Assembly (NCBI GenBank): GCA_903845155.1 | Contig: CAIMWN010000287.1 | Span: 1 to 17,311, forward strand | DNA from: Oligoflexia bacterium | Lineage (GTDB): Bacteria; Bdellovibrionota; UBA1018; CAIMNF01 | DNA length: 17,311 nt | Direction of reading: 5' to 3' | Shown here: positions 2,893 to 13,909 of the stretch, one piece after another | Layout of the letters: each line of letters starts with the position of its first letter | How positions within the stretch are numbered: position 1 is the first letter of the stretch | The notes under the pieces: model-generated | Seen by the model: the letters and a program-made list of their open reading frames with translations, nothing else | Database searches by the model: none | What the model was told of the DNA's origin: nothing | Made by a program: the position numbers and the translations under genes

Positions 2893-3612
2893 ATGAAGAA
2901 CTGTATCATCGTTTTCTTATTGATTGCCTCAATACATACCGCTTATGCAGATGATTCTGCGGCCACGCTTAAAAATGAATCGGAAGCAGGAGTAGTGGTC
3001 ACCGGCGGAAACACGCAAACCGATACCATTTCACTGAAGGAAAAAACGGCGTACGAATGGAATAAGAATATTGTAAAGTTTGGTGCAAACTTCTTAACAA
3101 CTTCCAATGCCGGAAATCAACAGGCCTACCAGTGGGGCCTTGGCCTTCGTTATGAACGCGAGTTATCAGATCAAATTGGTATCTTCCTTGGTCAAGCCGT
3201 GGAAAGTAATAAGTATCAAGGTATCCTTCAGCGCTACAATTCAGACTTAGGTGGCAGATATACTTTTGTAAAAACAGAACAGTTTAAGTGGGCCTCGGAG
3301 TTAGGTTATCGTTTTACTCGTGAGAATTACACCTTGGATGGCTTCAAAAATATAAACTTTTTGCGACTTTATAACGAGCTGGAGAGAATGTTTACGAAAA
3401 CATTTACGATCAAGTGGTGGATTGAGTTTCTACCTAATATTACCACTTCTGAGGCCTATCAGCTCAACACAGAGCTTTCGGGTAGTGCTGCTATATCAGA
3501 AATGTTTTCGATGAAGGCGGGTTATTTGATTAAGTACAACAATCAACCACCTGTTGGGGCTATTTACAAAACAGATTCCATGTTTACCACTGCCCTCGTC
3601 GCTAAGTTCTAG
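2893..3612 (+). CDS. DUF481/YdiY-like outer-membrane beta-barrel protein
   Basis: Signal peptide MKNCIIVFLLIASIHTAYA|DD. Alternating beta-strand patterns. YdiY-like motifs (TGGNTQT..., GQA..SNKYQGI..RY, L.IKYNN.PP......D...T.AL). C-terminal aromatic ...VAKF. The ATG lies 1 nt after the dcd stop, suggesting translational coupling. Confidence 0.7.
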   Translation: MKNCIIVFLLIASIHTAYADDSAATLKNESEAGVVVTGGNTQTDTISLKEKTAYEWNKNIVKFGANFLTTSNAGNQQAYQWGLGLRYERELSDQIGIFLGQAVESNKYQGILQRYNSDLGGRYTFVKTEQFKWASELGYRFTRENYTLDGFKNINFLRLYNELERMFTKTFTIKWWIEFLPNITTSEAYQLNTELSGSAAISEMFSMKAGYLIKYNNQPPVGAIYKTDSMFTTALVAKF

Positions 3613-4589
3613 AAACAATGCCCTAAACTCACTAAGCCATTGGTTCCATCAAGTCCCTCATAATTCGCGGTCCCGCATCCGGTGAATACGAGCGTCTCTG
3701 TCGTTCCATTCATTTTTGCCCCTAGTGTGCTCGGGGTTACTCCACTGATTGTTGAAAAAGTGGTCGTAATGGTACCAGAGGTTGGAGTACAGCACCCAGC
3801 CTTGAATGCAACATTAGTGAAGCTAGATGATGCTTTGAGATGTGCCAAATTATGAAATGTGATGACCGTTCCCGAAGTAATTGTATTACCGTTTGAAATC
3901 ACGAGAGGCGATCCACCTGCATTAGTGGTCACTGTGTGTCTGAATCGGGTACTATTTAAATTTAATCCAGCGATCGCAATCTGTGTCCTGAGGCCTCCTG
4001 AAAAACTCACCGTTGTTCCTCCGCTATACACATTTCCATCTGCAGCCGTGGCGGCGCCGGTGGTATCAATGATTACGCCTACACCTGCTGCTGATGTACG
4101 CGAAGTGCCTAAGGAAAAAGTTCGAGTAACACTAGACATGGCACTCGGGAATGCGCTTCCACAAACGGGAGTCGCGCCCGTAAATGCCACAAACTGTGTT
4201 CCGTTCCAAACGGCAGCTGAAGATGAATAACTACAATTCGAATAAGTGAGGGTTGCAGTGTTTGCAGATACAGAGCAGTTAGCAACGGTACCACTCGCAA
4301 TCGTCGGACACGTAGTTCCGGCTTCTGCGTTTTTAAGCGGCAAAAATGCATCTAAGAATGAGCACATTTTTGATTCAGATTTCTGATCGATCCAAAAGTT
4401 TGCCAATGTGCCACCTGAGGAGCCATTAGCTGCACCACCCACTGCTGCGGCAACGGTCCCCGAAGTAGATGCATCATCCGTAGATGCTGCGGTCGTGGCT
4501 TTGCCACAAGCAGATGTGAATCCAATGAGGATGGTTAAAGATAGAAAAGATAGAATAGTCTGAAAATTCGTAATAAAATACATGCGCAC
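3609..4589 (-). CDS. Ser/Thr/Gly/Ala-rich, multi-cysteine lipoprotein of unknown function
   Basis: 326-aa ORF. Signal peptide plus lipobox (..LTILIGFTSAC|GK). The mature part is about 60% S/T/G/A/N with 10 further Cys (e.g. KMCSF, TTCPT, ANCSV, SNCSY, PVCGS, AGCCTP, TGCGT, GHCF). SD-like GAGAGG upstream. I recognise no family. Confidence 0.7.
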   Translation of the reverse strand: MRMYFITNFQTILSFLSLTILIGFTSACGKATTAASTDDASTSGTVAAAVGGAANGSSGGTLANFWIDQKSESKMCSFLDAFLPLKNAEAGTTCPTIASGTVANCSVSANTATLTYSNCSYSSSAAVWNGTQFVAFTGATPVCGSAFPSAMSSVTRTFSLGTSRTSAAGVGVIIDTTGAATAADGNVYSGGTTVSFSGGLRTQIAIAGLNLNSTRFRHTVTTNAGGSPLVISNGNTITSGTVITFHNLAHLKASSSFTNVAFKAGCCTPTSGTITTTFSTISGVTPSTLGAKMNGTTETLVFTGCGTANYEGLDGTNGLVSLGHCF

Positions 4590-4695
4590 CTCTCATTCTA
4601 GAATACCTATTTAGAAAGAAGTGGGCAATAGATCAAAGTTGCCGAGTAAGTGTGCGAATACTCAATGGTACTTCAAATACAACACATTTAGTTCA

Positions 4696-5559
4696 TTAAA
4701 GATCTGGTGCGACATCGGGGGTAACTGCCGCAGGCGCTGGAACCGCTTTAGTAGCGGAGGCTGGTGCTCTACTTGGATCCTCAGTTGGTACAGCTTCTGC
4801 GGTTGCAGGCGCTGTGACTGGAGTGGTTACAGCTGGGTCCTGTGTGGTTTCAGGATTCTGCGTAATATTACTATTGAGGGGATTTACTTGTCCGGAGCCC
4901 GCGATCGTAGGCGCAAGCGAAATTCCGTATTTTGAAAAAACAGAAGTAGTGGTGACTTGGCCGTTCGTTTTTTGAACTTGAACCCATGGTTCTAAATCTG
5001 AACGCGAATTCTGAACAAAATTGAGGGTACTATCAGGCGTTGGATTCACCTTTTTGAAAAACACCCATTCAGATATTTTTGAATAATAGAGTGCTGCCCA
5101 ACGGAGGTATCTTGAATCTTTATAAACATCAACGTAGGCATTCGCGATGGGGCCCAAAAATCCAAAAGTATCCAAAACCTTTTTCTGACGAGTATTCCAG
5201 GTGGTGTCTCCTTGAATGGTGTCTTGTAGTTTTGAAATTTTAGCATAAAAACACCAGTGCATGCGCTCTGGGTCTTGAGTCACTAACTCTACTGCGCCTT
5301 TTCTAATGTCATCTTTCGATGTGGTGAGTTGACTAAGTTTCTTAAACTCATCGTCACAAGTATCGCCGAATTCCCCAAGCACACCCTTGGGCGCTAAAGG
5401 GCTGAAAAAAATGGCTTTGAGGTCAGCTAGTTCAAATCCCGCTGGATGTGGCACTTTTACATACTCGGGCACCTCAGGCAGCGGAATCTTTTCAGATACC
5501 GTTACTGTGCTTGAGCACCCTGCCAAAAGCATCAAACTAAAAATGCCGTATAGTCTCAT
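4696..5559 (-). CDS. Lipoprotein of unknown function with a Pro/Ala/Thr-rich C-terminal tail
   Basis: The ORF track extends to 5706. However, the Met at 5559 (MRLYGIFSLMLLAGC|SS) gives a canonical lipoprotein signal and has GAGGA 8 nt upstream. The Met at 5577 (MARINF...) is the alternative start. The longer version would overlap the divergent gene. The tail ...DPAVTTPVTAPATAEAVPTEDPSRAPASATKAVPAPAAVTPDVAPDL looks disordered. Confidence 0.65.
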   Translation of the reverse strand: MRLYGIFSLMLLAGCSSTVTVSEKIPLPEVPEYVKVPHPAGFELADLKAIFFSPLAPKGVLGEFGDTCDDEFKKLSQLTTSKDDIRKGAVELVTQDPERMHWCFYAKISKLQDTIQGDTTWNTRQKKVLDTFGFLGPIANAYVDVYKDSRYLRWAALYYSKISEWVFFKKVNPTPDSTLNFVQNSRSDLEPWVQVQKTNGQVTTTSVFSKYGISLAPTIAGSGQVNPLNSNITQNPETTQDPAVTTPVTAPATAEAVPTEDPSRAPASATKAVPAPAAVTPDVAPDL

Positions 5560-5692
5560 AAAATTGATCCTCGCCATTATCCTTATCGTCAAAATATTGA
5601 ATAACGTTAATTTTTTGTCGGATCTTTTTACTAAGTTAATAAGTTTCAAGGATTTAGCCAGTGTGTCCGAAAGGCTCTTTGTGAAGAACTCT
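5560..5692. promoter_or_regulatory. AT-rich divergent intergenic region, presumed to hold promoters for the minus-strand lipoprotein gene and the plus-strand five-gene operon
   Basis: 133 bp between two divergent signal-peptide-supported starts. It is visibly AT-rich (aaaatattgaataacgttaattttttgtcggatctttttactaagttaataagttt). I could not place convincing -35/-10 hexamers by eye. Confidence 0.35.
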
Positions 5693-6829
5693 ATGAAGAC
5701 AATCAATAGTAGCAGTACAAAGTTGGCAGGCGCAGTATTGTTGTTATTTTTAAGCTCAATTCCTAGTGTTTTTGCACAAAAAACGCAAGGTGAGGAGCAG
5801 CCACCTACCCCCAGTTCCAGTGCAAGTGGTGCAAGAAACTTCTATCAAGTGCTGGATGAAGTCCTTTCTGATTTTGAATACGATCTGAAAGCAGGCCAAG
5901 TGATTGGGCTAAAAGATCTCTCTATCAGAAATGTCGTCATGAGTGAAAATATCCCTCCTTCATTTAAATCACATCTAGAACTTTTGGTCTCCGAGCGCAT
6001 TTTAAAAACGACTAAAACGAGAATTGTACACTGTCTCGCCTGTAAGTCTAAAAAGGCAACACTCAATGGAGACAATATGGTGATTTCATCACCAGAATCA
6101 AATTCTTCCGAGCTCCAAAGAATTGCCAAAATGAATGGCATTCAAAACTTTATGGATATCGCTTTCGCCTATCAACCCACGGGCGTGCTTTTATCTTTTA
6201 CCATCTCAGATACAGAAACAGGCACCATGCTTTGGTCTCACAGTTATAATTCTGAGGGCACCCGCGCAGCAGCCCAGCGCCGTGGAGTTGATTTTCAAGA
6301 GCTAGAAGAAGCTAAGGCAAAAATGGAATATCAACCCACCATTCAAATGAAGCCAACGCTCTATACGGTGTTCGCTCCTAAAGCTAACTCTGGTTATGCA
6401 ACGGCTCTTGGATTCGGATTTAGAATGATGGAACGATATGACAATAGGAAAAAAGAAGTTGGATTTGAAATGAATTACTACAAGGACATTCCGTCACTGG
6501 TCGGAGAACCCGGTGCCTCTGCTGATAAAAATAATATTTATACTGGGTTAAACCTCACTTTCCTGTTTATGCATGGATGGGGCTTGTTTGGGGCAGAAGA
6601 GAATTACAATAAAGCGCGTGGAGTTGTTTATGGCGGTATCGGTGGCACGTACGCTTCAGGCTTTCTGGGTGGCCTCATTCGTGGTGCCTATGAGTGGCGC
6701 TTGGCGAAACATTGGGCGGTAACCACCTTTCTTGGTTATCGACCTCAGGCTACTTTGGTTATTTCTTCATCATCAACTGCACCCCTTACGGGTGTAGAAG
6801 GAGGACTCGGTGTTGGATTCCTATTCTAA
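5693..6829 (+). CDS. Two-domain outer-membrane protein: N-terminal periplasmic alpha/beta domain plus C-terminal small beta-barrel
   Basis: The start is reassigned to the internal Met at 5693, which gives a signal peptide (MKTINSSSTKLAGAVLLLFLSSIPSVFA|QK). The 5387 start would overlap the opposite-strand gene. The C-terminal ~170 aa show amphipathic strands (ALGFGFRM, VGFEMNYY, GLNLTFLF, GAYEWRL, WAVTTFLGY) and end in GLGVGFLF, a terminal Phe as in OMP sorting signals. The N-terminal domain loosely resembles FlgO/CsgG/LpoB-type folds (unverified). Confidence 0.65.
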   Translation: MKTINSSSTKLAGAVLLLFLSSIPSVFAQKTQGEEQPPTPSSSASGARNFYQVLDEVLSDFEYDLKAGQVIGLKDLSIRNVVMSENIPPSFKSHLELLVSERILKTTKTRIVHCLACKSKKATLNGDNMVISSPESNSSELQRIAKMNGIQNFMDIAFAYQPTGVLLSFTISDTETGTMLWSHSYNSEGTRAAAQRRGVDFQELEEAKAKMEYQPTIQMKPTLYTVFAPKANSGYATALGFGFRMMERYDNRKKEVGFEMNYYKDIPSLVGEPGASADKNNIYTGLNLTFLFMHGWGLFGAEENYNKARGVVYGGIGGTYASGFLGGLIRGAYEWRLAKHWAVTTFLGYRPQATLVISSSSTAPLTGVEGGLGVGFLF

Positions 6830-7532
6830 ATTTTATAGCGCTCTCATTGCATTGCTGATCGTATCAGCATGTTCAACCGCACAAAGTGTGCAGGAAAAAG
6901 AACAATCACGTATTGAAAATCCCTTTGGAAACTACAATCAAGAAACCAACGACCCAAGTCGCAATATTACTTTTAGAAGTAAAAAAGGTGATCAGGCATT
7001 GGAACTCGAGTTCCCCGAAAAAGGCAACTCCGACATGGTGATTCCGATGAATTCAAAATATCAAAACAACGAACGCACCTCTATCGCTGGAACGGACGAA
7101 GTAGATTATCAATACAAAGACCGCAAGCCTAGCATGGCTGACCGTGAAATTGCCTCCACATTTGGTGGTTCGAAAAATCTTGAAGATGAGTCCAAAAGGC
7201 ATGAGATTGAACAAAATTTAGGATTACAGCCAAGCGACGAAGCTCCCAATATGGATGAAAGCTATCTTGCAAAACTCGACGTAGTAAAACAACTTTTTAG
7301 AACGAAACGTTATGAAGCAGCCATGATTGAGATAGACCAATTGGTTAAGTCTTATCCGACCAATAGCCGTCTCTACGAAATGCGGGGAACACTTTTAGAT
7401 CGCATGGGTTATCAAGACCTTGCGTTACGCTCGTGGAAACAAGCGATAGAGCTTGATCCAACGCGAGTGACATTAAAGAAGACTATCGAAAAACGTGAGC
7501 AACAAAGAAGTGTTGCGTCTGAGAGGAAGTAA
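6810..7532 (+). CDS. TPR-repeat lipoprotein
   Basis: GTG start at 6810 is preceded by a strong SD (AAGGAGGA, 6798-6805) and overlaps the upstream stop by 20 nt. Lipobox ALLIVSAC|S. The central region looks disordered and acidic or polar. The C-terminus carries about 2 TPR units (RYEAAMIEIDQLVKSYPTNSRLYEMRGTLLDRMGYQDLALRSWKQAIELDP). Confidence 0.7.
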   Translation: MLDSYSKFYSALIALLIVSACSTAQSVQEKEQSRIENPFGNYNQETNDPSRNITFRSKKGDQALELEFPEKGNSDMVIPMNSKYQNNERTSIAGTDEVDYQYKDRKPSMADREIASTFGGSKNLEDESKRHEIEQNLGLQPSDEAPNMDESYLAKLDVVKQLFRTKRYEAAMIEIDQLVKSYPTNSRLYEMRGTLLDRMGYQDLALRSWKQAIELDPTRVTLKKTIEKREQQRSVASERK

Positions 7533-9911
7533 ATGATGAAAACCATAATTGCAATTATAGGAATGATGCAAGTAGTGGCCTTTGCCGGACCCTCAACGCT
7601 CGACGTGAAGAAACGGGGTGAGCAAGAAATCAAGCAAATTGTTCAACCGATCCTCACTCAGTACTGTCATGAACAATGCGAAATCATTGGTGCGAGCACT
7701 GAAGTGGATGTTGCCGTTCAAGACGAAGCTACTCCCGGTTTTGAAGACAATGTAGGAAAGGCAACCTTGACTCCGGTTTCAGGTAAAGTGCAAATCCTCG
7801 TGGACAAATTTCTATCAGATACCAAAAGAAAACAAGTAACCGATCTCATCGCTGAACACTTAAAGCAACTCGACTATAGAGTTGAAATTGAAAGCACGAT
7901 TAAGGAATTTCCTCAGCCTGCGGCTTCCGGATATCGCGTAGCTGAACTCCGTGAAAAGGTGACCAGAGACATCAAGGCATCTATGCAAAGTCTGATCAAT
8001 CAATTTTGTGCAGATTCATGTATTTTAGGACAGTTTGATGTGCAAACTGAAGTAGTGAATGCCGATGAAGTCAATTACGGTTCAAGCCAGGATTATTTTC
8101 AAGATGGTCCAGCAGCGATTCGGGTCCGAAATGTGAAGGCGACCGTGATGGTGGATCAATCTCTTCCAAAAGAAGAAGCAGCCGGAATTGTGGAGATGGC
8201 GAAAGTTAAATTAAGCCAATACAAAAATGCCCAGGTGACGAGTGAAGTGATGAATTTTCCGAAAACTTCAAGCATGCTCGCAAAAAATGGAATTTACGGC
8301 AATGGCCGCTATCCAGCGGGCGTTGACGGAAAAAATAGTGAAACCAGTGAATCTAAAGATTCAAAATTAGACGCTAAGAGTGACTCAAAATATGATTCTA
8401 AAACTGATTCGAAGTACGATGCCAAAACTGATTCAAAATACCAATCGTTAACAGACGCTAAAGAACAAACTACGCGCTCTGATGCTCGTTCTGAATCCTT
8501 GAAAAAGAATGAAACGAATAGCAATAGCAATAGCAATAATAATACTGAAAATAAATCTGAGAAATTTGAACGCTTTGAGAAAATTGAGCGCGTTGAAAAT
8601 GGAGATGCCGTTCAACAAGTGCTTGAAAAATTCCGCGTATACGGAATTATTCTTTCTGCGATCATGCTTGCTTTATTATTTAGTTTAGTTGCCATATCAT
8701 TTCGAAGAAACAATTGGGGTGGCGCGAAGGCAACTGATCAGGCGCATTCGCCAAAAGCTGAACAGGGTTCAAAAGGCGCGCCAAGTGCCGAGTCTGGTGT
8801 TCTTACTAGTGACGAGAAATCGGCGCTCATCGGAAAGAGGATTGAAGCCGATCGTCTCTTTAATGACCTTACTCAAATTTTTTCCGAACAGCCTAAAGTT
8901 GCGAAATATGTATTCACTCATGTTTTGACCGAAGAAGGCGTAGAGACTGCCGCCCAGTATTTGGAGATTTTTGGTGAAACCGTAATTATGGATCTGCTTC
9001 GCGATCCCGGTCTTCAGTCTGACTTGTCAGAACTGATGGATTTTTACGCTAAAAATACTTTTGATATTAATGATGATGAGACGTTAATGCTATTGAAGAA
9101 GCTCCATCATCGAACCGTCACCGCCAAAATGCAAGTTCATGGCAGCCGCTCCGCCGTGTTGTTCGATTTCTTGGCAGATATGGATACTCCACAGATTTTT
9201 GAAATGATCAAAAATGAATCGAATACAGTGAAGGCCATTGTCCTCACTCAGTGTGATCAGAAGAAACGTCAGGCTATTTTTGCATCTTATGATGACCATA
9301 ATCGTCTGAAACTGATGACCGAACTTTCTCGCATTGATCATTTACCAAAAAATTATATTTTCAACGTGGCCTCAGCGCTTCGTCGTAAGAAAGCTGAGAA
9401 TCCAAAACTCAATACTGAAGCGCTTCCGGGCACCGATGTGTTGGTCAGTTTCCTTGAAAAGGCGAGTGTGGATACCCAACGCACCATCATTCATCAACTC
9501 ATGTCTTCGGCTGGGGGCGATGTGCTCAATAACTTGAAAGCGAAGCTCGCCAGTGTGGAGACCTTGAGATTTGTGAAGGACGCCCAACTGACTGAAGTAA
9601 TTACCCATGTAAAACATGATGAACTTCTTCAGTTTCTACAGGGCTGTAGTAAGGATGTGCGAGAATCGGTGCTGTCTAAAGCACCGCAAGATCTTGCAGC
9701 TGATCTGAGTGATGGTCTGCAACTTTCTGAGCCGGTCAATCGTGATACCTACATCGCCGTTGAACGTAAGATCATCAATAGAATTAAGGTCCTTGCGAAC
9801 CAAGGGCAGATCAGTCTTACAGAAGTGAATGAACGGATGTTTGCAGAAGAGTTTGGATTTAATCATTCAAACCCTGACGTAACTGAAGTTGGATACGGGA
9901 AGGTAGGTTAA
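7533..9911 (+). CDS. Bitopic membrane protein with periplasmic tandem RBM-like repeats (FliF/SctJ-like topology), one TM helix and a cytoplasmic full-length FliG-like module
   Basis: The ATG directly abuts the upstream TAA (7530-7532); SD GAGAGGAAG. Signal peptide MMKTIIAIIGMMQVVAFA|GP. Two about 100-aa repeats (aa ~31-128 and ~145-244). Low-complexity linker. TM helix aa 369-390 (VYGIILSAIMLALLFSLVAISF) followed by RRNN (positive-inside). By hand, aa ~424-765 align with FliG N/M/C: LTSDEKSALI.. vs FliG LSG.EKAAILL; DTPQIFEMIKNESNTVKAIVLTQCDQKKRQAIFASYDDHNRLKLMTELSR vs ..LIRDEHPQIIATILVHL...AADIL..F.E.LR.DVM.RIA; DAQLTEVITHVKHDELLQFLQGCSKDVRESVLSKAPQDLAADL....EPV......VERKIINRIKVLANQGQISL vs DRSIQRLLQEVDSESLLIALKGA...LREKFL.NMSQRAA..LRDDL...GPVR...VE..QK.IL.IVRRLAE.GE.V. 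Confidence 0.7.
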   Translation: MMKTIIAIIGMMQVVAFAGPSTLDVKKRGEQEIKQIVQPILTQYCHEQCEIIGASTEVDVAVQDEATPGFEDNVGKATLTPVSGKVQILVDKFLSDTKRKQVTDLIAEHLKQLDYRVEIESTIKEFPQPAASGYRVAELREKVTRDIKASMQSLINQFCADSCILGQFDVQTEVVNADEVNYGSSQDYFQDGPAAIRVRNVKATVMVDQSLPKEEAAGIVEMAKVKLSQYKNAQVTSEVMNFPKTSSMLAKNGIYGNGRYPAGVDGKNSETSESKDSKLDAKSDSKYDSKTDSKYDAKTDSKYQSLTDAKEQTTRSDARSESLKKNETNSNSNSNNNTENKSEKFERFEKIERVENGDAVQQVLEKFRVYGIILSAIMLALLFSLVAISFRRNNWGGAKATDQAHSPKAEQGSKGAPSAESGVLTSDEKSALIGKRIEADRLFNDLTQIFSEQPKVAKYVFTHVLTEEGVETAAQYLEIFGETVIMDLLRDPGLQSDLSELMDFYAKNTFDINDDETLMLLKKLHHRTVTAKMQVHGSRSAVLFDFLADMDTPQIFEMIKNESNTVKAIVLTQCDQKKRQAIFASYDDHNRLKLMTELSRIDHLPKNYIFNVASALRRKKAENPKLNTEALPGTDVLVSFLEKASVDTQRTIIHQLMSSAGGDVLNNLKAKLASVETLRFVKDAQLTEVITHVKHDELLQFLQGCSKDVRESVLSKAPQDLAADLSDGLQLSEPVNRDTYIAVERKIINRIKVLANQGQISLTEVNERMFAEEFGFNHSNPDVTEVGYGKVG
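8355..8463 (+). repeat. In-frame imperfect 24-nt (8-aa) tandem repeat encoding [ST]DSKYD[AS]K units
   Basis: Translation is KDSKLDAK-SDSKYDSK-TDSKYDAK-TDSKYQSL-TDAK. The nucleotide units (gattctaaaactgattcgaagtac / gatgccaaaactgattcaaaatac) are visibly related. The repeat lies in the periplasmic juxtamembrane linker of the 792-aa protein. Confidence 0.8.
8517..8543 (+). repeat. Hexanucleotide microsatellite (AATAGC)x3 followed by AATAATAAT, encoding NSNSNSNNN
   Basis: Direct reading: aatagc aatagc aatagc aataat aat. The unit length is a multiple of 3, so slippage would keep the frame. Confidence 0.85.
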
Positions 9912-9915
9912 TACT

Positions 9916-10701
9916 ATGAATATTTCATCATTAGTGGGCATTTTTATTGGCATGGCAGTAGTAGGGGCCTCCTTATCTGAGACGGGGATGGATGTTAAAT
10001 TCTTCCTGAACTTTCACGGTTTGGTCATTGTTTGCGGAGGAACGCTGGCGGCAGCGGCCATTAGCTTTCCGCTATCGAAGATTTTTATGCTCGCAAAAGT
10101 ATTTTTCCTGCGACTCGTAGGTAAAAATAAAGTGGATTATCAGGGAACGATTGAGCAAATGTTGGAGTTGAATAAGAAACTTTCATTGGGTTTGGTCGGT
10201 TCACATGAAGCCATTGCGGGAATTAACAATGAATTTTTAAAAGAAGCTGTGACTTTGGTAGCAGATGGAGTGTTGAGTGAAAAAGAGATTAGATGTGTTC
10301 TAGACCAGAGACTGAGAACGATTGAACATCATTATATGCATGAAGCAAATATGTTTAAGGTGATTGGGAAGTATCCGCCTGCATTTGGACTATTAGCAAC
10401 TACACTTGGAATGATCGCACTTCTTCAAAAAATTGGCCAACCCGGTGCCGAAAAACTGATTGGTCCAGCGATGGCAATTGGACTTGTGGGTACTCTCTAC
10501 GGGATTGGTCTTGCCAATTTGCTTTTTTTACCGATATCGGAAGCTCTTGTTGAAAAAACAGAAGAGGAAATTACACTTCGCAAAATGATTATTGAAGGTT
10601 CAGTCCTCTTGAAGCAAAGAGTGAGCCCCGTTTATATGCGTGAGAGCTTAAATTCATTTCTTCTTCCCCGTGATCGCGTGGTTCGTAGAAAGGCAGCGTA
10701 A
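9916..10701 (+). CDS. motA: Flagellar-type stator A subunit (MotA/PomA subfamily of the MotA/TolQ/ExbB family)
   Basis: 261 aa in a four-TM layout: two N-terminal TMs, a ~100-aa cytoplasmic loop, then two C-terminal TMs. Conserved channel motifs YPPAFGLLATTLGMI and IGPAMAIGLVGTLYGIGLANLLFLPISE (compare PomA [30 protein letters not shown]). The ATG lies 4 nt after the upstream stop. Confidence 0.85.
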   Translation: MNISSLVGIFIGMAVVGASLSETGMDVKFFLNFHGLVIVCGGTLAAAAISFPLSKIFMLAKVFFLRLVGKNKVDYQGTIEQMLELNKKLSLGLVGSHEAIAGINNEFLKEAVTLVADGVLSEKEIRCVLDQRLRTIEHHYMHEANMFKVIGKYPPAFGLLATTLGMIALLQKIGQPGAEKLIGPAMAIGLVGTLYGIGLANLLFLPISEALVEKTEEEITLRKMIIEGSVLLKQRVSPVYMRESLNSFLLPRDRVVRRKAA

Positions 10702-10707
10702 TTTTTT

Positions 10708-11556
10708 ATGGCAGTCATACGTAAGCTTGATCCAAATACTGAAGAGTCAAATGAAGGGCCACCGCCGCCCAAGAAATATGATCGCTTTAATCAAGGCCAC
10801 GACGATTCAAATTGGTTAATTAGTTATGCTGATATGATGACCCTGCTTTGCGTTTTTTACATCATGATGTTCAGTATGGCGAAAATGAATACTGCAGAAT
10901 TTGAAAAGGTGAAGAAAGAGGTCGCACAAAACTTGGGAACCAAGTATGAGTCACCTACCGAGAATCTCGGTAAATATGTCACCAATATTTTAACTGAAAC
11001 GGGTGTAGCAAAAGACGCGACCATGGTGAGCGACGGTGTGAGTGTGAGTATCGCGTTTCACTCGACCCTCTTTTTTGATACAATGAGTGCCGAGATTTCA
11101 CCGCAAGGCCGAGAGATTCTAGAAAAAGTCATTGCTGGGCTGGATGAACATCAAAAGCTAAATAAGAAACATTATAAGATAGTGGTAGAAGGGCATACCG
11201 ATAGCCAAGCGATTGTAGGTGGGCCGTTTCCATCCAATTGGGAATTATCGAGTTCGCGTGCGACTCGTGTGATTAGGTTGTTTTTGGATCGTGGATTTCA
11301 GGCTTCCAATCTTCTGGCGATTGGTTATGCCGATACGCAGCCCGTGGCCGACAGTAGGAATCCTGACGGTACATGGAATGCTGAGAACTTAGGTAAAAAT
11401 AGGCGTGTGGTATTAAGAGTGATGCTCCCTGATGTGGATTCGATACCTTGGAAAGTAGCCCCGTCGGGAGTCAAGAATACTGCTACAACAGCAACTCCAG
11501 TCACGGTGGTTGCGCCCGTTTCTGTTGCCCCGGCCCCTGCGGCTCCGGTCAAATAG
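10708..11556 (+). CDS. motB: Flagellar-type stator B subunit (MotB/PomB) with OmpA-like peptidoglycan-binding domain and a Pro/Ala/Val/Thr-rich C-terminal tail
   Basis: NWLISYADMMTLLCVFYIMMF is the single TM carrying the conserved ion-binding Asp (YAD). The OmpA-like core is VEGHTDSQ...SNWELSSSRATRVIRLF...GYADTQPV...NRRVVLRV. The ATG lies 6 nt after the motA stop. The tail is TATTATPVTVVAPVSVAPAPAAPVK. Confidence 0.85.
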   Translation: MAVIRKLDPNTEESNEGPPPPKKYDRFNQGHDDSNWLISYADMMTLLCVFYIMMFSMAKMNTAEFEKVKKEVAQNLGTKYESPTENLGKYVTNILTETGVAKDATMVSDGVSVSIAFHSTLFFDTMSAEISPQGREILEKVIAGLDEHQKLNKKHYKIVVEGHTDSQAIVGGPFPSNWELSSSRATRVIRLFLDRGFQASNLLAIGYADTQPVADSRNPDGTWNAENLGKNRRVVLRVMLPDVDSIPWKVAPSGVKNTATTATPVTVVAPVSVAPAPAAPVK

Positions 11557-11689
11557 TTGTCCCTGTTTACCCAGTTGATTTATTAAACTAGGCAAATCAT
11601 TCCCATGGCAGCCCTTGTTTAATAATGAGATTCTGATTCAAGAGTCAGTGGAGATTCCAATTAAACTAAAAAGCAGGGAGCAATACAGG

Positions 11690-11845
11690 ATGTCTACTCC
11701 AAAGGTTAAAACCATACGTACCAGTTCGATCGAGGTGATTGCACTTATCGCATCCCTGTTTTTTCTCGTGGCCGGCATGACTTTGATTTCGAATGGAAAA
11801 AAGATTTATGCAAATCAGCTCAAATTATCCGAGCGAATTAGATAA
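11690..11845 (+). CDS. Possible 51-aa single-TM small membrane protein (hypothetical)
   Basis: Internal Met of the 11615 ORF: MSTPKVKTIRTSSIEVIALIASLFFLVAGMTLISNGKKIYANQLKLSERIR. It has a basic N-terminus and one hydrophobic helix. A purine-rich AGGGAG lies ~13 nt upstream. There is no homology evidence, so it could be non-coding. Confidence 0.3.
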   Translation: MSTPKVKTIRTSSIEVIALIASLFFLVAGMTLISNGKKIYANQLKLSERIR

Positions 11846-11852
11846 AAAGTGC

Positions 11853-11894
11853 AAAAAAAACCCCAGTCTCGAATGTTGATACACAAGACTGGGG
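11853..11894 (-). terminator. Rho-independent terminator downstream of tRNA-Asn (minus strand); may also stop plus-strand read-through
   Basis: The minus strand reads ccccagtct-(16 nt)-agactgggg-tttttttt, a perfect 9-bp GC-rich stem followed by T8. On the plus strand the same stem is preceded by A8 and followed only by tt. Confidence 0.75.
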
Positions 11895-11970
11895 TTCCCT
11901 AGGTTGGGTGACTTCTCTAAAGTTGTATTTACGGCCAACACTAAATTTCCAACCAAGTGGTTGGCAAATA

Positions 11971-12045
11971 TGGCTCAGGAGGAGGGATTCGAACCCCCGA
12001 CCAATCGGTTAACAGCCGATTGCTCTACCACTGAGCTACTCCTGA
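11971..12045 (-). tRNA. tRNA-Asn (anticodon GUU), CCA-encoded
   Basis: The minus strand folds as a 75-nt cloverleaf: TCAGGAG TA GCTC AGTGGTA GAGC A ATCGG CTGTTAA CCGAT TGGTC GGGGG TTCGAAT CCCTC CTCCTGA G CCA. It has a 7-bp fully paired acceptor stem, the GTTCGAAT T-loop and a CT-GTT-AA anticodon loop. A TAAAAT -10-like hexamer (12059-12054, minus strand) sits ~8 nt upstream of the mature 5' end. Confidence 0.93.
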
Positions 12046-12097
12046 ATAGTAATATTTTAAGTAACCAAAAATCGATTCGTTGTCTATACTAAATTTA

Positions 12098-13909
12098 ATG
12101 CACCACAGACGCAATACTCTTCTTATAAATTTACTTTTTTTATTTATATTCGTGGAGAGTCCCATTTTCATTACGCCAGTTCATGCAAAACCTGAGAACT
12201 TAAGCGCACTGCTCCAGAGATGGACGCCACCCGAAGTGAAGAAATCCGTAAAAAAATCACCTAAAAAGAAGGCGGCTCAAGTCGCTTTAGGGGTAGAGGC
12301 CCTTCCTCTGGAGTACTGGATATACTTTGAAGCGAAGGCTGCTTTAGAAAAGAAGTTAGATCTTAAATCAATTGAATCGCTTGAGAAAAGAATTTTAGAA
12401 GTTCGCTTGAATGCAGATACACGTGCGCTCGAAAAGGAATTTGATGAGCTTTTTTATGCGCTCGAAATTAAGCGTGCGGAGAGGCAGGTCAGGCTAAAAT
12501 CGTGGCGCCTAGCCACTCGCTCTTTTACTCACGCCATGAATGCGCTTCATACCTTTAAGTGGATTTATTATTGGAGAGCTGAAACTTCCGATGCTCTGGT
12601 TGCACTCTGCACGCGAAAAGCTAAGGTGAAAGACGATGCCTGTCCGGTCCTTGCAAAAAGGGTAGTTGATGCCTTTCCGAAAAGCGCAACGGAAACTAAG
12701 GTACTAAGGGATTTGCCCGCCATTGAAGCATCCCCCCTGGTTGATGTGGCGACGGCCGACCGCCTTTCTCAGCCTTATCCTGAAAAGACCGAACAAGATG
12801 AAGAGGCTTTTGCAGATGTCCTCGATGATTATCTCAATGGGAAAGATCACGAATTGTTTGAGCACGCGAAACTGTTCATGAACGATTTTCCAAAATCAAT
12901 CTTACGCTTTAGGGCGTTGTTCTTAATGGCCGAGTTTGATTTCAAGTTCAATAGAAAAAAAGACGCCAAAGAAAAATACGATCAAATTATTAGCCAAATC
13001 CCGCTCAGTTATTATGCAGTAGTGGCAGCAGAGCGCAACGGCGTTCAACTCAGGGACCAAGTGAAGAAGGATATGATCAAAGTAGATCTCGATCAACTAA
13101 ACCTTCAGTACCCTGAAAAACAGGCTTTAGTTCGGGCTGAAAGTCTTTATGTGAAGAAACATTATGAAGAAGTCGCATTGGAGCTTGAAACCTTAACGAG
13201 AGTGCGCGCCTACAATCTCGACACCATTTTATATGTGATGGGTCTTGCTCATCAATCCAATCAAGACCTGACTGCATTTAGAATTGCGAACGAATTGATT
13301 CAGCGGAAGTATGATGGTTTACTTGCGAATGAATTCTTGGAAATGATTTTTCCGGATCGGTATTCTGAAGACATTGAACTTTATTCAAAATTAAATAAAA
13401 TCGATCCGCTTTGGGTTATGTCTTTGATGAAGCAAGAGTCGGGTTTTAAGGCACCCATCCTCTCTTCCTCTGGTGCGATGGGACTCATGCAATTGATGCC
13501 TTTTACCGCGCTCGACGTTCAAAAAGATGTGCTCCTTTCATCATTAAAGCAACCATCCAATAATATTTCGATTGGCACTAAATACATTGCTTCGCTTGCG
13601 GAGAAATACAATGGCAACATGGTCTTCGCGCTTGCAGCCTATAATGCAGGCCCAAATCGCGTTGCAAAATGGAAGAAAGACGCGAAACCAAATTGGGGAA
13701 TGACCGAGTTTATAGAATCCATTCCGTATAAGGAAACTCGTGACTATGTGATGTCGATCTTCAGAAATCATTATTGGTATCAGTATCGAAAGGGTCAATC
13801 AGCACAAAGCGTCTTTGATCCCAATTTCGATTTAAAAAGACCAATCGATACCAAAACCGATTCTAAAACTGATGCCAGAGTAGATGTGAAGCTCGAAGCG
13901 AAGAAATAG
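12098..13909 (+). CDS. slt: Soluble lytic murein transglycosylase (Slt70-like: N-terminal helical repeat domain plus C-terminal SLT/GEWL domain)
   Basis: I prefer the ATG at 12098 (MHHRRNTLLINLLFLFIFVESPIFITPVHA|KPE, a signal peptide) over the TTG at 12080. SLT catalytic motifs are present: MSLMKQESGFK (catalytic Glu), GAMGLMQLMP and AAYNAGPNRV. The long helical N-terminal region is as in Slt70. Confidence 0.85.
   Translation: MHHRRNTLLINLLFLFIFVESPIFITPVHAKPENLSALLQRWTPPEVKKSVKKSPKKKAAQVALGVEALPLEYWIYFEAKAALEKKLDLKSIESLEKRILEVRLNADTRALEKEFDELFYALEIKRAERQVRLKSWRLATRSFTHAMNALHTFKWIYYWRAETSDALVALCTRKAKVKDDACPVLAKRVVDAFPKSATETKVLRDLPAIEASPLVDVATADRLSQPYPEKTEQDEEAFADVLDDYLNGKDHELFEHAKLFMNDFPKSILRFRALFLMAEFDFKFNRKKDAKEKYDQIISQIPLSYYAVVAAERNGVQLRDQVKKDMIKVDLDQLNLQYPEKQALVRAESLYVKKHYEEVALELETLTRVRAYNLDTILYVMGLAHQSNQDLTAFRIANELIQRKYDGLLANEFLEMIFPDRYSEDIELYSKLNKIDPLWVMSLMKQESGFKAPILSSSGAMGLMQLMPFTALDVQKDVLLSSLKQPSNNISIGTKYIASLAEKYNGNMVFALAAYNAGPNRVAKWKKDAKPNWGMTEFIESIPYKETRDYVMSIFRNHYWYQYRKGQSAQSVFDPNFDLKRPIDTKTDSKTDARVDVKLEAKK

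What the first reader, a model, noticed from the sequence alone, without database searches (positions are those of the whole stretch)
5693..11556. Translationally coupled five-gene operon pairing a flagellar-type MotA/MotB stator with a membrane-anchored FliG-like protein, a TPR lipoprotein and an OM beta-barrel, outside any flagellar locus
Seen directly: the five co-directional genes have essentially no intergenic space. GTG 6810 overlaps the upstream stop by 20 nt, TAA and ATG abut at 7532/7533, and the remaining gaps are 4 nt and 6 nt. Each start has an SD-like purine run. Predicted locations span the whole envelope: an OM barrel ending ...GFLF, a lipoprotein with TPRs, a bitopic inner-membrane protein with large periplasmic and cytoplasmic parts, a 4-TM MotA/PomA, and a MotB with the YAD aspartate and an OmpA-like PG anchor. 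Established: MotA5B2-type stators turn against FliG in flagella, and related 5:2 motors power non-flagellar processes (Tol-Pal, ExbBD-TonB, GldLM, AglRQS, ZorAB). Here the stator is clearly the flagellar subtype, because the B subunit has an OmpA domain. Its apparent partner is encoded in cis, yet no fliM/fliN/fliH/flh/flg genes occur in 17 kb, and the flanks are leuS/dcd and tRNA/slt/prs. Inference: this could be a self-contained ion-driven rotor-stator device that couples to the outer membrane, with possible roles in surface motility, envelope remodelling or secretion. I do not know of a described system with this gene set.
Basis: partly seen in the sequence, partly recalled or inferred. Interest (0 to 1): 0.88.

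Follow-up and report, generated by a model that had tools for sequence, protein, structure and literature searches.

The report
Flagellar-type motor module without a flagellum
A tightly packed five-gene operon, conserved across uncultured predatory bacteria (Bdellovibrionota), pairs a flagellar-type MotA/MotB ion motor with a single protein that looks like the two flagellar rotor proteins FliF and FliG fused together, plus two outer-envelope proteins. It appears to be an undescribed envelope-spanning machine built from flagellar parts.

Summary
Five co-directional genes (5693-11556) overlap, abut, or lie 4-6 nt apart.

- **Domains.** Profile searches confirm MotA, MotB (plug, YAD aspartate, OmpA-like domain), TPR repeats, and FliG_M plus FliG_C in the 792-aa protein.
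- **Rotor protein.** Its periplasmic half is two ring-building-motif (alpha-beta-beta-alpha-beta) domains that hit the FliF MS-ring. Its cytoplasmic half aligns to full-length FliG. It therefore resembles a natural FliF-FliG fusion. It lacks a third ring-building domain, the FliM-binding EHPQR motif and the MFxF switch hinge.
- **Gene 1.** It models as a TolB-N/LpoB-like domain plus an 8-stranded outer-membrane barrel.
- **Conservation.** All five genes occur in the same order in 53 of 53 species-level genomes with enough flank.
- **Wider family.** A distant one-RBM subfamily keeps G1-like, TPR, MotA, MotB and FliG-like genes in a different order.
- **Literature.** I found no published description.

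The best reading is a dedicated rotor-stator, or Tol-Pal-like force-transducing, module separate from the flagellar basal body. Its output is unknown. Independence from the flagellum is not shown: relatives carry flagellin genes 3-6 kb away, two homologues lack adjacent MotAB, and the source genome could not be searched for canonical fliF/fliG.

The parts
4696..5559 (-). Divergently transcribed lipoprotein (287 aa, lipobox LLAGC, no Pfam family). It is a conserved neighbour of the operon.
   Evidence: Homologues lie in the same divergent position in 59 related loci. The gene call on the identical ENA contig agrees. Pfam finds nothing significant.
5560..5692 (.). 133-nt AT-rich divergent intergenic region, presumably holding the promoters of both transcription units.
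   Evidence: Sequence read directly. The consensus promoter scan is no better than shuffled sequence, and Rfam finds nothing. Promoter function is inferred, not shown.
5693..6829 (+). G1 (378 aa). It has a signal peptide, a periplasmic TolB-N/LpoB-like alpha/beta domain (aa ~50-190, with an invariant CxxC at C114/C117), and an 8-stranded outer-membrane beta-barrel (aa 216-376) ending GFLF.
   Evidence: The AF2 model has pLDDT 82. Foldseek hits TolB at 2.3e-7, OmpW at 1.3e-4, LpoB at 2.5e-4, and also OmpX, OmpA and NspA. No Pfam or NCBIfam family matches. Homologues are 53-83% identical.
6810..7532 (+). g2 (240 aa). A lipoprotein (lipobox IVSAC) with C-terminal TPR repeats (aa ~155-225).
   Evidence: Eight TPR-type Pfam hits, best TPR_2 at 2.8e-5, all below the curated cut-offs. 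NCBIfam gives weak PilW, MamA and NlpI matches. The gene is conserved in 75 loci. A strong AGGAGG lies 7 nt before the GTG start.
7533..9911 (+). g3 (792 aa). A bitopic inner-membrane protein resembling a FliF-FliG fusion.
   Evidence: AF2 model. Foldseek hits both FliG and FliF. Pfam finds FliG_M and FliG_C. More than 145 full-length homologues of 740-840 aa exist.
7596..7904 (+). g3 RBM-like domain 1 (aa 22-124; alpha-beta-beta-alpha-beta; invariant C45-x3-C49 and FPQP).
   Evidence: pLDDT above 90 with the RBM topology. Foldseek hits FliF MS-ring 7bk0_B at 4.5e-5 and 6scn_A at 6.2e-4.
7920..8252 (+). g3 RBM-like domain 2 (aa 130-240; same fold; invariant C159-x3-C163 and FP).
   Evidence: The one-RBM subfamily aligns to this repeat.
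8286..8558 (+). g3 disordered Ser/Asn/Thr/Lys-rich periplasmic spacer.
   Evidence: pLDDT below 50. Its length is 34-98 aa across the family. The type-2 subfamily has a 32% proline spacer here instead.
8559..8615 (+). g3 invariant pre-membrane motif E-x-F-E-R-F-EKIERVENGDAVQ.
   Evidence: E349, E352, R353, V354, E355, G357, D358 and A359 are invariant in 66 sequences. Its function is unknown.
8634..8702 (+). g3 transmembrane helix (aa ~368-390), followed by RR on the cytoplasmic side.
   Evidence: A single long helix spans 356-391 in the AF2 model. The hydrophobic stretch and positive-inside residues are read directly from the sequence.
8808..9851 (+). g3 cytoplasmic FliG-like region (aa 426-773) covering FliG N, M and C domains.
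   Evidence: Foldseek aligns 320 columns to the 328-residue Salmonella FliG 8umx_B at 1.4e-8, and also hits 3hjl. phmmer gives 3hjl at 7.5e-9 and 1lkv at 4.4e-8. NCBIfam fliG scores 62 bits against a cut-off of 226.7.
9678..9743 (+). g3 'torque helix' equivalent (aa 716-737). It is conserved and highly acidic.
   Evidence: From the alignment to T. maritima and A. aeolicus FliG and family conservation. The position of E. coli R281 is D/E720. D288 is E/D727. D289 is E728 in the family but G in the window. R297 is S/N736, followed by R737.
9916..10701 (+). g4 (261 aa). A four-TM MotA/PomA-type stator A subunit.
   Evidence: Pfam MotA_ExbB 1.2e-18. The best NCBIfam hits are MotA, MotP and PomA at ~136 bits, far under their cut-offs of 340-394. 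PDB MotA 9lu9 hits at 3.7e-32 and PomA at 2e-24. The equivalents of E. coli P173 (YPPAFG) and P222 (FLPIS) are present. The orthologue group is tight at 62-100% identity.
10708..11556 (+). g5 (282 aa). MotB-type B subunit with a TM helix carrying the YAD aspartate, a plug, and an OmpA-like peptidoglycan-binding domain.
   Evidence: Pfam MotB_plug 2.2e-14 and OmpA 9.4e-16. NCBIfam MotD and MotS hits fall below their cut-offs.

Best explanation
The operon most likely encodes a dedicated, envelope-spanning motor module built from flagellar-type parts but separate from the flagellar basal body.

**Shown**
- g4 and g5 are a MotA/MotB-type ion-driven stator with a plug and a peptidoglycan anchor.
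- g3 has two periplasmic ring-building-motif domains, a flexible periplasmic spacer, one TM helix, and a complete FliG-like cytoplasmic region with a conserved charged 'torque helix'.
- G1 is an outer-membrane barrel with a TolB-N/LpoB-like periplasmic domain.
- g2 is a TPR lipoprotein.
- The five genes are inherited as a unit.

**Inferred**
- MotA5B2 units, fixed to the wall by MotB, engage the FliG-like domain of g3.
- g3 oligomerises through its RBM domains, and possibly through FliG-type ARM stacking.
- Ion flow turns or pulls the g3 assembly. The movement passes through the periplasmic spacer and RBM ring to the G1/g2 complex at the outer membrane.

**Why it probably runs without the CheY-controlled switch**
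- g3 lacks the FliM-binding EHPQR motif and the MFxF hinge.
- No FliM/FliN, export gate or rod genes accompany it.

**Regulation.** In most lineages, but not in the window's clade, a small cNMP-binding protein sits between g3 and MotA. This suggests cyclic-nucleotide gating.

**Output.** The output is unknown. Part for part, the set mirrors Tol-Pal:
- TolQ/R correspond to MotA/B.
- TolA corresponds to g3.
- The TolB N-domain corresponds to the G1 N-domain.
- CpoB corresponds to the TPR protein g2.
- The Pal OmpA domain corresponds to the MotB C-terminus.

It also mirrors Agl-Glt. I therefore favour energising an outer-membrane or surface process, such as envelope tethering or remodelling, surface motility, or prey contact, over propeller rotation.
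For: - **Domains and folds:**
- **g3 hits both rotor proteins:** FliG (8umx_B, 1.4e-8, 320 of 328 residues) and the FliF MS-ring (7bk0_B, 4.5e-5).
- **Operon conservation:** all five genes in the same order in 53 of 53 species-level genomes.
- **Second subfamily:** a one-RBM form homologous over its whole length (hhalign prob 99.9, E 1.6e-32). It is again encoded with G1-like, TPR, MotA and MotB genes, but in the order G1-TPR-MotA-MotB-FliG-like. The pairing has therefore survived rearrangement.
- **Distinct stator:** this MotA forms a tight orthologue group (62-100% identity). It is only 17-25% identical to other MotAs, including a second MotA in the same locus L005. It scores below every curated flagellar-stator equivalog cut-off.
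- **Remodelled interface on both partners:** the FliG position equivalent to E. coli R281 is acidic. MotA lacks R90/E98 in register and instead conserves K87, K88 and E/D98.
- **Switch motifs absent:** EHPQR and MFxF.
- **Flagellated relatives:** flagellin genes occur in 21 loci, and FG-1/FG-2 cells carry one polar flagellum (PMC13200544). The module is therefore an addition to a flagellum, not a substitute for one.
- **Not Zorya:** no ZorA hit.
Against: - No experiment or structure shows that g3 forms a ring, binds MotA, or rotates.
- A 34-98-residue disordered spacer is a poor torque shaft. This favours tension transduction over rigid rotation.
- Two 2xRBM homologues (L088, L090) have no MotAB nearby. 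The FliG-like protein may therefore be able to use stators encoded elsewhere, possibly flagellar ones.
- Flagellin genes lie 3-6 kb upstream in 21 relatives, although housekeeping genes separate them from the operon.
- The canonical R90/E98 to R281/D289 charge pairs are not conserved, so stator engagement is inferred from homology only.
- I could not confirm canonical fliF/fliG in the source genome.
- The RBM assignment rests on fold only. A profile of the RBM pair finds nothing among PDB sequences.
Confidence: 0.55

Rival explanations
1. The module is a lineage-specific accessory of the flagellar motor. G1, the TPR lipoprotein and the g3 ring would form a periplasmic and inner-membrane scaffold around the basal body. 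This scaffold would recruit or position an extra MotAB stator set. Known parallels are PflA/PflB (TPR) and FlgP/FlgQ in Campylobacter, and FlgO/FlgP/FlgT in Vibrio.
For: - Carriers are flagellated with a thick polar flagellum.
- Flagellin genes lie within 8 kb in 21 loci.
- TPR proteins and outer-membrane-associated lipoprotein-like folds are typical of high-torque motor scaffolds (established knowledge).
- The stator is of flagellar type.
- Orphan g3 homologues lack their own MotAB.
- B. bacteriovorus is reported to use three MotAB pairs on one flagellum (Morehouse 2011, cited in PMC11323537).
Against: - A second FliG-like torque surface outside the C-ring would oppose stator rotation rather than help it.
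- No known scaffold protein carries FliG domains.
- The operon is never embedded among fli/flg/flh genes in 79 loci. An HMM of the FliG region finds no canonical FliG in the flanks.
- The flagellin linkage is part of a broader housekeeping synteny that includes MeaB, an M48 peptidase and XerC.
- MotA and the FliG-like helix have both diverged at the canonical charge positions.
Confidence: 0.25
2. g3 is a stator-binding regulator or sensor rather than a rotor. A membrane-tethered FliG decoy would park, sequester or load-sense MotAB units. In most lineages this would be under cyclic-nucleotide control. Envelope state would be signalled through the periplasmic domains.
For: - A cNMP-binding protein is inserted between g3 and MotA in most loci.
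- The FliM-binding and switch motifs are lost.
- The flexible spacers are ill-suited to transmit torque.
Against: - It does not explain the strictly co-inherited outer-membrane barrel and TPR lipoprotein.
- It does not explain the two well-folded ring-building domains.
- It does not explain why a dedicated, highly conserved MotAB pair would be kept only to be sequestered.
Confidence: 0.12
3. It is simply the organism's own flagellar MS-ring and C-ring in naturally fused form, together with its stator.
For: - Engineered FliF-FliG fusions assemble rings and can function (PMC6079021, PMC11481574).
- g3 hits both FliF and FliG.
Against: - g3 has only two RBMs and no RBM3/beta-collar region, which forms the S-ring and houses the export gate.
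- The EHPQR motif is absent.
- No export-gate, rod, hook or switch genes lie nearby.
- B. bacteriovorus, from the same phylum, has ordinary adjacent fliF and fliG.
- A long disordered spacer separates the RBMs from the membrane.
Confidence: 0.04

Closest known systems
Bacterial flagellar rotor-stator core (FliF MS-ring, FliG, MotA5B2 / PomAB)
   Same: - MotA has four TM helices and the conserved TM3/TM4 prolines.
- MotB has the channel aspartate, a plug and an OmpA-like peptidoglycan anchor.
- The g3 cytoplasmic region aligns to full-length FliG (N, M and C domains) with a conserved charged helix at the torque-helix position.
- The g3 periplasmic region has FliF-like RBM folds.
   Different: - FliF-like and FliG-like parts sit in one polypeptide.
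- There are only two RBMs and no RBM3/beta-collar.
- A 34-98-aa disordered spacer lies between the RBMs and the membrane.
- EHPQR and MFxF are absent.
- The R281 equivalent is acidic, and MotA R90/E98 are not in register.
- No FliM/N, export gate, rod or hook genes accompany it. Instead it comes with an outer-membrane barrel and a TPR lipoprotein.
Tol-Pal system (TolQ-TolR-TolA-TolB-Pal-CpoB)
   Same: - A 5:2-type motor is encoded with an inner-membrane-anchored, periplasm-spanning protein.
- A protein with a TolB-N-like domain is present (G1; best Foldseek hit TolB at 2.3e-7).
- A TPR protein and an OmpA-like peptidoglycan-binding domain are present.
- All are encoded in one operon.
   Different: - The motor is MotAB-type, not TolQR.
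- The periplasm-spanning protein couples through a cytoplasmic FliG-like domain, not through a TM helix inside the TolQ pentamer.
- The TolB-like domain is fused to an outer-membrane barrel and has no beta-propeller.
- The OmpA domain is on the B subunit, not on a lipoprotein.
- The resemblance is by parts list only. No homology was shown for TolA or CpoB.
Agl-Glt gliding machinery and Nfs of Myxococcus; GldLM/PorLM of Bacteroidota
   Same: These are non-flagellar, envelope-spanning machines powered by a MotAB/TolQR-family motor. They include outer-membrane beta-barrels, TPR proteins and inner-membrane adaptors with extended periplasmic regions. They occur in related predatory lineages.
   Different: - Those motors are TolQR/ExbBD-like or GldLM, with no plug or OmpA-like domain.
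- None uses a FliG-like adaptor or RBM domains.
- No sequence similarity to Glt or Gld proteins was detected by Pfam or NCBIfam.
Engineered FliF-FliG fusion proteins (Salmonella, Vibrio)
   Same: A single chain carries MS-ring and FliG parts. Such fusions assemble rings in membranes (PMC6079021, PMC11481574, PDB 8z4d).
   Different: Those fusions are laboratory constructs of full-length FliF, with three RBMs and two TM helices, joined to FliG. They work inside a complete flagellum. g3 is a natural, reduced, diverged protein in a non-flagellar operon.
Zorya ZorAB anti-phage system
   Same: The B subunit has a MotB-like TM helix and an OmpA-like domain. PADLOC ZorB models hit g5 at 1e-21.
   Different: - No ZorA model hits g4.
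- g4 is 261 aa and has no long cytoplasmic tail.
- There are no ZorC, ZorD or ZorE genes.
- The locus is a conserved chromosomal operon with vertical synteny, not a defence island.

Membership tests
Flagellar stator MotAB/PomAB (the 'FIT' group of PMC12505986) | The A subunit has four TM helices and conserved prolines in TM3 and TM4. | tested here: met
   Full-length alignment to PDB MotA and PomA (9lu9 at 3.7e-32, 8bri at 2e-24). YPPAFG and FLPIS are present.
Flagellar stator MotAB/PomAB (the 'FIT' group of PMC12505986) | The B subunit has a channel Asp, a plug helix and an OmpA-like peptidoglycan-binding domain. | tested here: met
   YAD lies in the TM helix. Pfam MotB_plug 2.2e-14 and OmpA 9.4e-16.
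Flagellar stator MotAB/PomAB (the 'FIT' group of PMC12505986) | The protein scores above a curated equivalog cut-off (MotA, MotP, PomA, MotC or similar). | tested here: not met
   The best NCBIfam score is 136 bits against cut-offs of 237-394. MotB-type models score 132 bits against 283.
Flagellar stator MotAB/PomAB (the 'FIT' group of PMC12505986) | The cytoplasmic-loop charged pair equivalent to E. coli MotA R90/E98 is conserved. | tested here: inconclusive
   The pair is not in register: there is a one-residue gap at R90, and N/H/K sits at the E98 position. The neighbouring residues K87, K88 and E/D98 are conserved family-wide.
Flagellar stator MotAB/PomAB (the 'FIT' group of PMC12505986) | The stator drives rotation of a flagellum. 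| not testable with these tools
   This needs genetics or motility assays in a carrier organism.
FliG (flagellar rotor/switch protein) | An all-helical ARM-repeat fold with N, M and C domains. | tested here: met
   Foldseek aligns 320 columns to the 328-residue 8umx_B at 1.4e-8. Pfam finds FliG_M and FliG_C above cut-off.
FliG (flagellar rotor/switch protein) | The EHPQR motif that binds FliM. | tested here: not met
   The aligned residues are E562-S-N/L-T565. Only the Glu is conserved, and the Arg position is H/Y.
FliG (flagellar rotor/switch protein) | The MFxF hinge and the torque-helix charges (E. coli K264, R281, D288, D289, R297). | tested here: not met
   - MFxF is L-A/V-S-x.
- R281 is D/E720.
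- D288 and D289 are kept as E/D727 and E728 in the family; position 728 is G in the window.
- K264 is kept as K703 in the family but is Q in the window.
- R297 is S/N736.
FliG (flagellar rotor/switch protein) | A soluble ~330-aa protein that scores above the TIGR00207 cut-off. | tested here: not met
   The protein is 792 aa and membrane-anchored. It scores 62 bits against a cut-off of 226.7.
FliF / SctJ ring-building-motif inner-membrane ring proteins | Periplasmic alpha-beta-beta-alpha-beta RBM domains next to a TM anchor. | tested here: met
   Two RBM-topology domains have pLDDT above 90. Foldseek hits FliF 7bk0_B at 4.5e-5 and 6scn_A at 6.2e-4, and weakly the T3SS inner-membrane ring 8axn.
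FliF / SctJ ring-building-motif inner-membrane ring proteins | Sequence membership (Pfam YscJ_FliF) and, for FliF, RBM3 with a beta-collar. | tested here: not met
   There is no YscJ_FliF hit. The RBM-pair profile finds nothing among PDB sequences. Only two RBMs appear in the model.
FliF / SctJ ring-building-motif inner-membrane ring proteins | Assembly into a homo-oligomeric ring. | not testable with these tools
   This needs a multimer prediction, or purification followed by EM.
Tol-Pal / ExbBD-TonB | A three-TM TolQ/ExbB subunit, and a TolR/ExbD B subunit without a plug or OmpA domain. | tested here: not met
   g4 aligns end to end with four-TM MotA. g5 has a plug and an OmpA domain. No TolQ, TolR or ExbD family appears among the significant NCBIfam hits.
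Zorya | ZorA with a long cytoplasmic tail, plus ZorC/D/E effectors. | tested here: not met
   No PADLOC hit for g1-g4; only generic ZorB models hit g5.

The most novel reading that the evidence does not exclude
The operon encodes an autonomous, non-flagellar machine. A minimal FliF/FliG-fusion rotor is driven by its own MotAB stator, with no type III export apparatus, rod or switch. It transmits ion-motive energy across the periplasm to an outer-membrane barrel and TPR lipoprotein complex. This would be a previously unrecognised class of flagellar-type motor. It could be a reduced offshoot of the flagellar motor or a relative of its pre-secretory ancestor. It would exist in at least two operon architectures across uncultured Bdellovibrionota-like bacteria.
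Probability: 0.45. Interest if true: 0.9.

Novelty: new variant of a known kind. Interest (0 to 1): 0.8.

Why it matters
FliG-MotA torque generation has so far been known only inside flagella. Every described non-flagellar 5:2 motor (Tol, Ton, Gld, Agl, Zor) couples to its partner in a different way.

A conserved module that pairs a flagellar-type stator with a stripped-down FliF/FliG-like protein would have two consequences. First, it would show that the rotor-stator interface can be used outside the flagellum. Second, it would offer a natural minimal system for two questions. One is what a FliF/FliG ring plus stator can do without secretion. The other is how the flagellar motor could have arisen or been reused.

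The module is also a candidate envelope or predation-related machine in a phylum of bacterial predators that is almost entirely uncultured. The parts are small and well defined enough for direct structural and genetic tests.

Tried and rejected
- **Promoter and terminator scan of 4500-12200.** The counts were no better than for shuffled sequence, so this is uninformative.
- **Rfam on the whole window.** Only the tRNA was found; there is no riboswitch before the operon.
- **RBM-pair profile against PDB sequences.** There was no FliF or SctJ hit, so the FliF link is by fold only.
- **PADLOC.** Only generic ZorB hits appeared, so Zorya is rejected.
- **Canonical FliG in 86 locus flanks, using an HMM of the g3 FliG region.** None was found. 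This neither proves nor disproves its presence elsewhere in those genomes.
- **The 578-aa protein after the extra MotAB pair in L005.** It is not detectably related to g3 or to the one-RBM subfamily.
- **The L086 OMP_b-brl protein against G1.** They are unrelated.
- **MAFFT alignment of MotAs with E. coli MotA.** The cytoplasmic loop was mis-registered, so I used the HMMER alignments to PDB MotAs instead.
- **Organism names for distant homologues.** The cluster look-ups gave almost none.
- **Morehouse 2011 (three MotAB pairs in Bdellovibrio).** The paper is not held, so I could not relate g4/g5 to MotAB1-3.
- **Literature searches.** None found a description of the system.

Full report
**1. 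Observation**

| Gene | Coordinates | Note |
|---|---|---|
| g1 | 5693-6829 | the ORF formally runs back to TTG 5387, overlapping the divergent gene |
| g2 | 6810-7532 | GTG start |
| g3 | 7533-9911 | |
| g4 | 9916-10701 | |
| g5 | 10708-11556 | |

g1 and g2 overlap by 20 nt. The g2 TAA abuts the g3 ATG. The last two gaps are 4 nt and 6 nt. SD-like purine runs precede g2-g5, with AGGAGG lying 7 nt before the GTG of g2. The run before g1 is weak. Gene calls on identical public contigs give the same five products. The consensus promoter and terminator scan is uninformative. Rfam finds only tRNA-Asn at 11971-12045.

**2. What the five products are**

*g4.* It matches MotA_ExbB (1.2e-18). It aligns end to end with solved flagellar MotA and PomA (9lu9 at 3.7e-32, 8bri at 2e-24). 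The TM3 and TM4 prolines are present.

*g5.* It has the YAD aspartate, MotB_plug (2.2e-14) and OmpA (9.4e-16). Both g4 and g5 fall far below every curated NCBIfam stator cut-off. They are therefore flagellar-type by architecture but members of no curated equivalog. PADLOC finds only generic ZorB similarity and no ZorA hit.

*g2.* It has a lipobox and sub-threshold TPR hits.

*g1.* It has no Pfam or NCBIfam family. Its AF2 model (pLDDT 82) is a TolB-N/LpoB-like domain followed by an eight-stranded barrel. Foldseek hits TolB, OmpW, LpoB, OmpX, OmpA and NspA.

*g3.* It has FliG_M and FliG_C above the Pfam cut-offs. Its AF2 model (built on 66 sequences, pLDDT 78) has this layout:

| Residues | Feature |
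|---|---|
| 22-124 | RBM-like alpha-beta-beta-alpha-beta domain, high confidence |
| 130-240 | second RBM-like domain, high confidence |
| 252-354 | disordered spacer |
| 356-391 | one long helix that includes the TM segment |
| 393-422 | second disordered stretch |
| 426-773 | all-helical region |

Foldseek returns two kinds of hit. Full-length FliG aligns over 320 of 328 residues (8umx_B, 1.4e-8). The FliF MS-ring also hits (7bk0_B at 4.5e-5; 6scn_A at 6.2e-4), and the T3SS inner-membrane ring hits weakly. g3 therefore resembles a natural FliF-FliG fusion.

The FliF link is by fold only. There is no YscJ_FliF Pfam hit, and the RBM-pair profile finds nothing among PDB sequences.

**3. Where g3 departs from FliG and g4 from MotA**

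I aligned g3 to T. maritima and A. aeolicus FliG and read conservation from 66 family members. I read MotA conservation from 117 homologues.

| Canonical feature | In g3 or g4 |
|---|---|
| EHPQR (FliM binding) | E-S-N/L-T; only the Glu is kept |
| MFxF hinge | L-A/V-S-x |
| E. coli FliG R281 | D/E720 (charge inverted) |
| E. coli FliG D288, D289 | E/D727 and E728 kept in the family; position 728 is G in the window |
| E. coli FliG K264 | K703 in the family; Q in the window |
| E. coli MotA R90 | one-residue gap; neighbouring K87 and K88 conserved |
| E. coli MotA E98 | N/H/K; neighbouring E/D98 conserved |

Both sides of the presumed interface are conserved within the family but differ from the flagellar pattern. 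This fits a dedicated pair but does not prove contact.

g3 also carries several invariant features of unknown role:
- a CxxxC in each RBM;
- FPQP after each RBM;
- an EKIERVENGDAVQ motif just outside the membrane.

**4. Conservation and distribution**

g3 has more than 145 full-length homologues of 740-840 aa in MAGs labelled Bdellovibrionales, Bacteriovoracia and Oligoflexia. A motif-seeded scan of one genome per GTDB species returned 79 loci. All are from uncultured Bdellovibrionota-type genomes, including the magnetotactic FG-1 and FG-2. By tblastn, all five genes are present in the same order and strand in 53 of 53 loci with enough flank.

Gene-cluster analysis adds three neighbours:
- a conserved divergent lipoprotein (window 4696-5559, minus strand; 59 loci);
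- in most lineages, a ~170-aa cNMP-binding protein between g3 and MotA;
- in most lineages, a Zn-ribbon/TM/SH3 protein after MotB.

The last two are absent from the window's clade.

MotA of this operon is a tight group: the top 120 hits are 62-100% identical. It is only 17-25% identical to other MotAs.

**5. A wider superfamily**

I searched an RBM-pair profile exhaustively against 1.84 billion representative proteins. It found only 155 proteins. Besides the 2xRBM forms of 720-990 aa, there is a group of ~540-625 aa that matches a single RBM.

- These proteins are homologous to g3 over their whole length (hhalign probability 99.9, E 1.6e-32).
- 24 of 29 carry FliG_C.
- Their periplasmic spacer is 32% proline, which resembles TonB.

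Their loci, together with a 986-aa 2xRBM variant (L087), again hold G1-like, TPR, MotA and MotB genes. The order differs from the window: G1-TPR-MotA-MotB-FliG-like.

| Locus | Layout |
|---|---|
| L087 (986-aa 2xRBM variant) | G1 homologue at hhalign 1e-26 |
| L089 (one-RBM, 585 aa) | G1 homologue at hhalign 9e-15 |
| L086 (one-RBM, 611 aa) | 7.5-Mb contig, 67% GC; OMP barrels, a TPR protein, MotA, MotB, then the FliG-like protein |

Two 2xRBM homologues are orphans with no MotAB nearby (L088, L090).

**6. Relation to the flagellum**

The window has no flagellar gene. In 21 related loci, however, one or two flagellin genes lie 3-6 kb upstream, separated from the operon by MeaB and M48-peptidase genes. 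FG-1 and FG-2 cells bear one thick polar flagellum (PMC13200544).

Carriers are therefore flagellated. g3 lacks an RBM3/beta-collar and is not accompanied by export-gate genes. A separate canonical FliF/FliG is thus expected, but I could not verify this for the source genome. No canonical FliG lies within the fetched flanks. The flagellin linkage and the orphan homologues keep a flagellum-associated role alive as the main rival.

**7. Mechanism**

The best-supported reading is as follows. The steps are inferred from homology and co-inheritance, not shown directly.
- Wall-anchored MotA5B2 units engage the FliG-like domain of an oligomeric g3 assembly.
- Ion flow turns or pulls that assembly.
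- The periplasmic spacer and RBM ring couple the movement to G1 and g2 at the outer membrane.

The flexible or proline-rich spacer and the parts list resemble Tol-Pal more than a rigid axle:

| Tol-Pal component | Counterpart here |
|---|---|
| TolQ / TolR | MotA / MotB |
| TolA | g3 |
| TolB N-domain | G1 N-domain |
| CpoB | TPR protein g2 |
| Pal OmpA domain | MotB C-terminus |

The set also resembles Agl-Glt. I therefore favour an envelope or surface output over propeller rotation.

**8. Literature**

Full-text searches found no description of this gene set. The 2025 MotAB survey (PMC12505986) treats plug plus OmpA-type stators as flagellar.

There is one lead. In the B. bacteriovorus Tn-seq study (PMC6561027, Data Set S4), Bd0878 is a 'hypothetical' protein with a 99% Phyre match to FliG. 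It shows a strong predation defect in all four conditions. Its relation to g3 is untested.

**9. Verdict**

- Independence from the flagellum and the output function remain unproven.
- I rate it a new variant of a known kind (a flagellar-type rotor-stator pair in a non-flagellar, envelope-spanning context) and of high interest.

Noticed in passing
L005 1689-6097 (same contig as L016): A second set of genes is inserted between the divergent lipoprotein and G1: TPR(197)-MotA(243)-MotB(262, plug+OmpA)-578 aa-199 aa. This genome therefore carries two MotAB operons back to back. The 578-aa protein sits where the FliG-like gene would be, but it shows no detectable similarity to g3 or to the one-RBM subfamily.
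   Followed up: partly
L086 8385-11836; L087 4585-10961; L089 1-4903: These are 'type-2' operons with the order (G1-like)-TPR-MotA-MotB-FliG-like. L086 and L089 carry the ~600-aa one-RBM form, and L087 carries a 986-aa 2xRBM form. The one-RBM subfamily has a proline-rich, TonB-like periplasmic spacer. L086 lies on a 7.5-Mb, 67% GC contig and also has two OMP_b-brl proteins and a 180-aa protein with a weak TonB_C hit.
   Followed up: partly
L088 8001-10244; L090 10001-12322: These are orphan 2xRBM FliG-like homologues with no MotAB, G1 or TPR gene nearby. In L090 the gene upstream encodes a DsbA-like thioredoxin. This may relate to the invariant periplasmic cysteine pairs.
   Followed up: no
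21 related loci, e.g. L006 1766-3886: One or two flagellin genes lie 3-6 kb upstream of the operon. MeaB and M48-peptidase genes separate them, and their orientation varies. This is conserved synteny and does not indicate a shared operon.
   Followed up: partly
Literature: PMC6561027, Data Set S4: B. bacteriovorus Bd0878 (EP01_RS14260) is listed as a 'hypothetical protein' with a 99% Phyre match to FliG and no signal sequence. It has mini-Tn-seq fitness of 0.005-0.02 on V. cholerae and E. coli prey. That means a FliG-like gene outside the flagellar locus is needed for predation. Whether it is related to g3 could not be checked.
   Followed up: partly
window 7665-7679, 8007-8021 (g3 C45/C49, C159/C163) and 6032-6043 (G1 C114/C117): There are invariant periplasmic cysteine pairs: a CxxxC at the start of the first strand of each RBM, and a CxxC in the G1 TolB-N-like domain. 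Whether they form disulfides or bind metal is unknown.
   Followed up: no
related loci, between g3 and MotA (e.g. L003 10391-10897) and after MotB (e.g. L006 12505-13434): Most lineages carry two extra genes. One is a ~170-aa cNMP-binding protein. The other is a Zn-ribbon/TM/SH3_3 protein. Both are missing in the window's clade, where SLT-prs-pth-ychF follow instead.
   Followed up: partly
window 3609-4589 (-) and 2893-3612 (+): The first is a 326-aa Ser/Thr/Gly/Ala-rich putative lipoprotein with several cysteines and no Pfam family. It is conserved only in the closest relatives. Next to it is a DUF481 outer-membrane protein.
   Followed up: no
window 11615-11845 (+) and 11971-12045 (-): A small 76-aa ORF lies just after MotB. 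It is conserved in four close loci and is called as 51 aa on the ENA contig. It has no family. tRNA-Asn(GTT) lies on the opposite strand.
   Followed up: no
window 5387-5692: The g1 reading frame stays open 306 nt upstream of ATG 5693, back to TTG 5387, and overlaps the divergent lipoprotein gene. The long form is an ORF-caller artefact. Public gene calls and the signal peptide support ATG 5693.
   Followed up: yes
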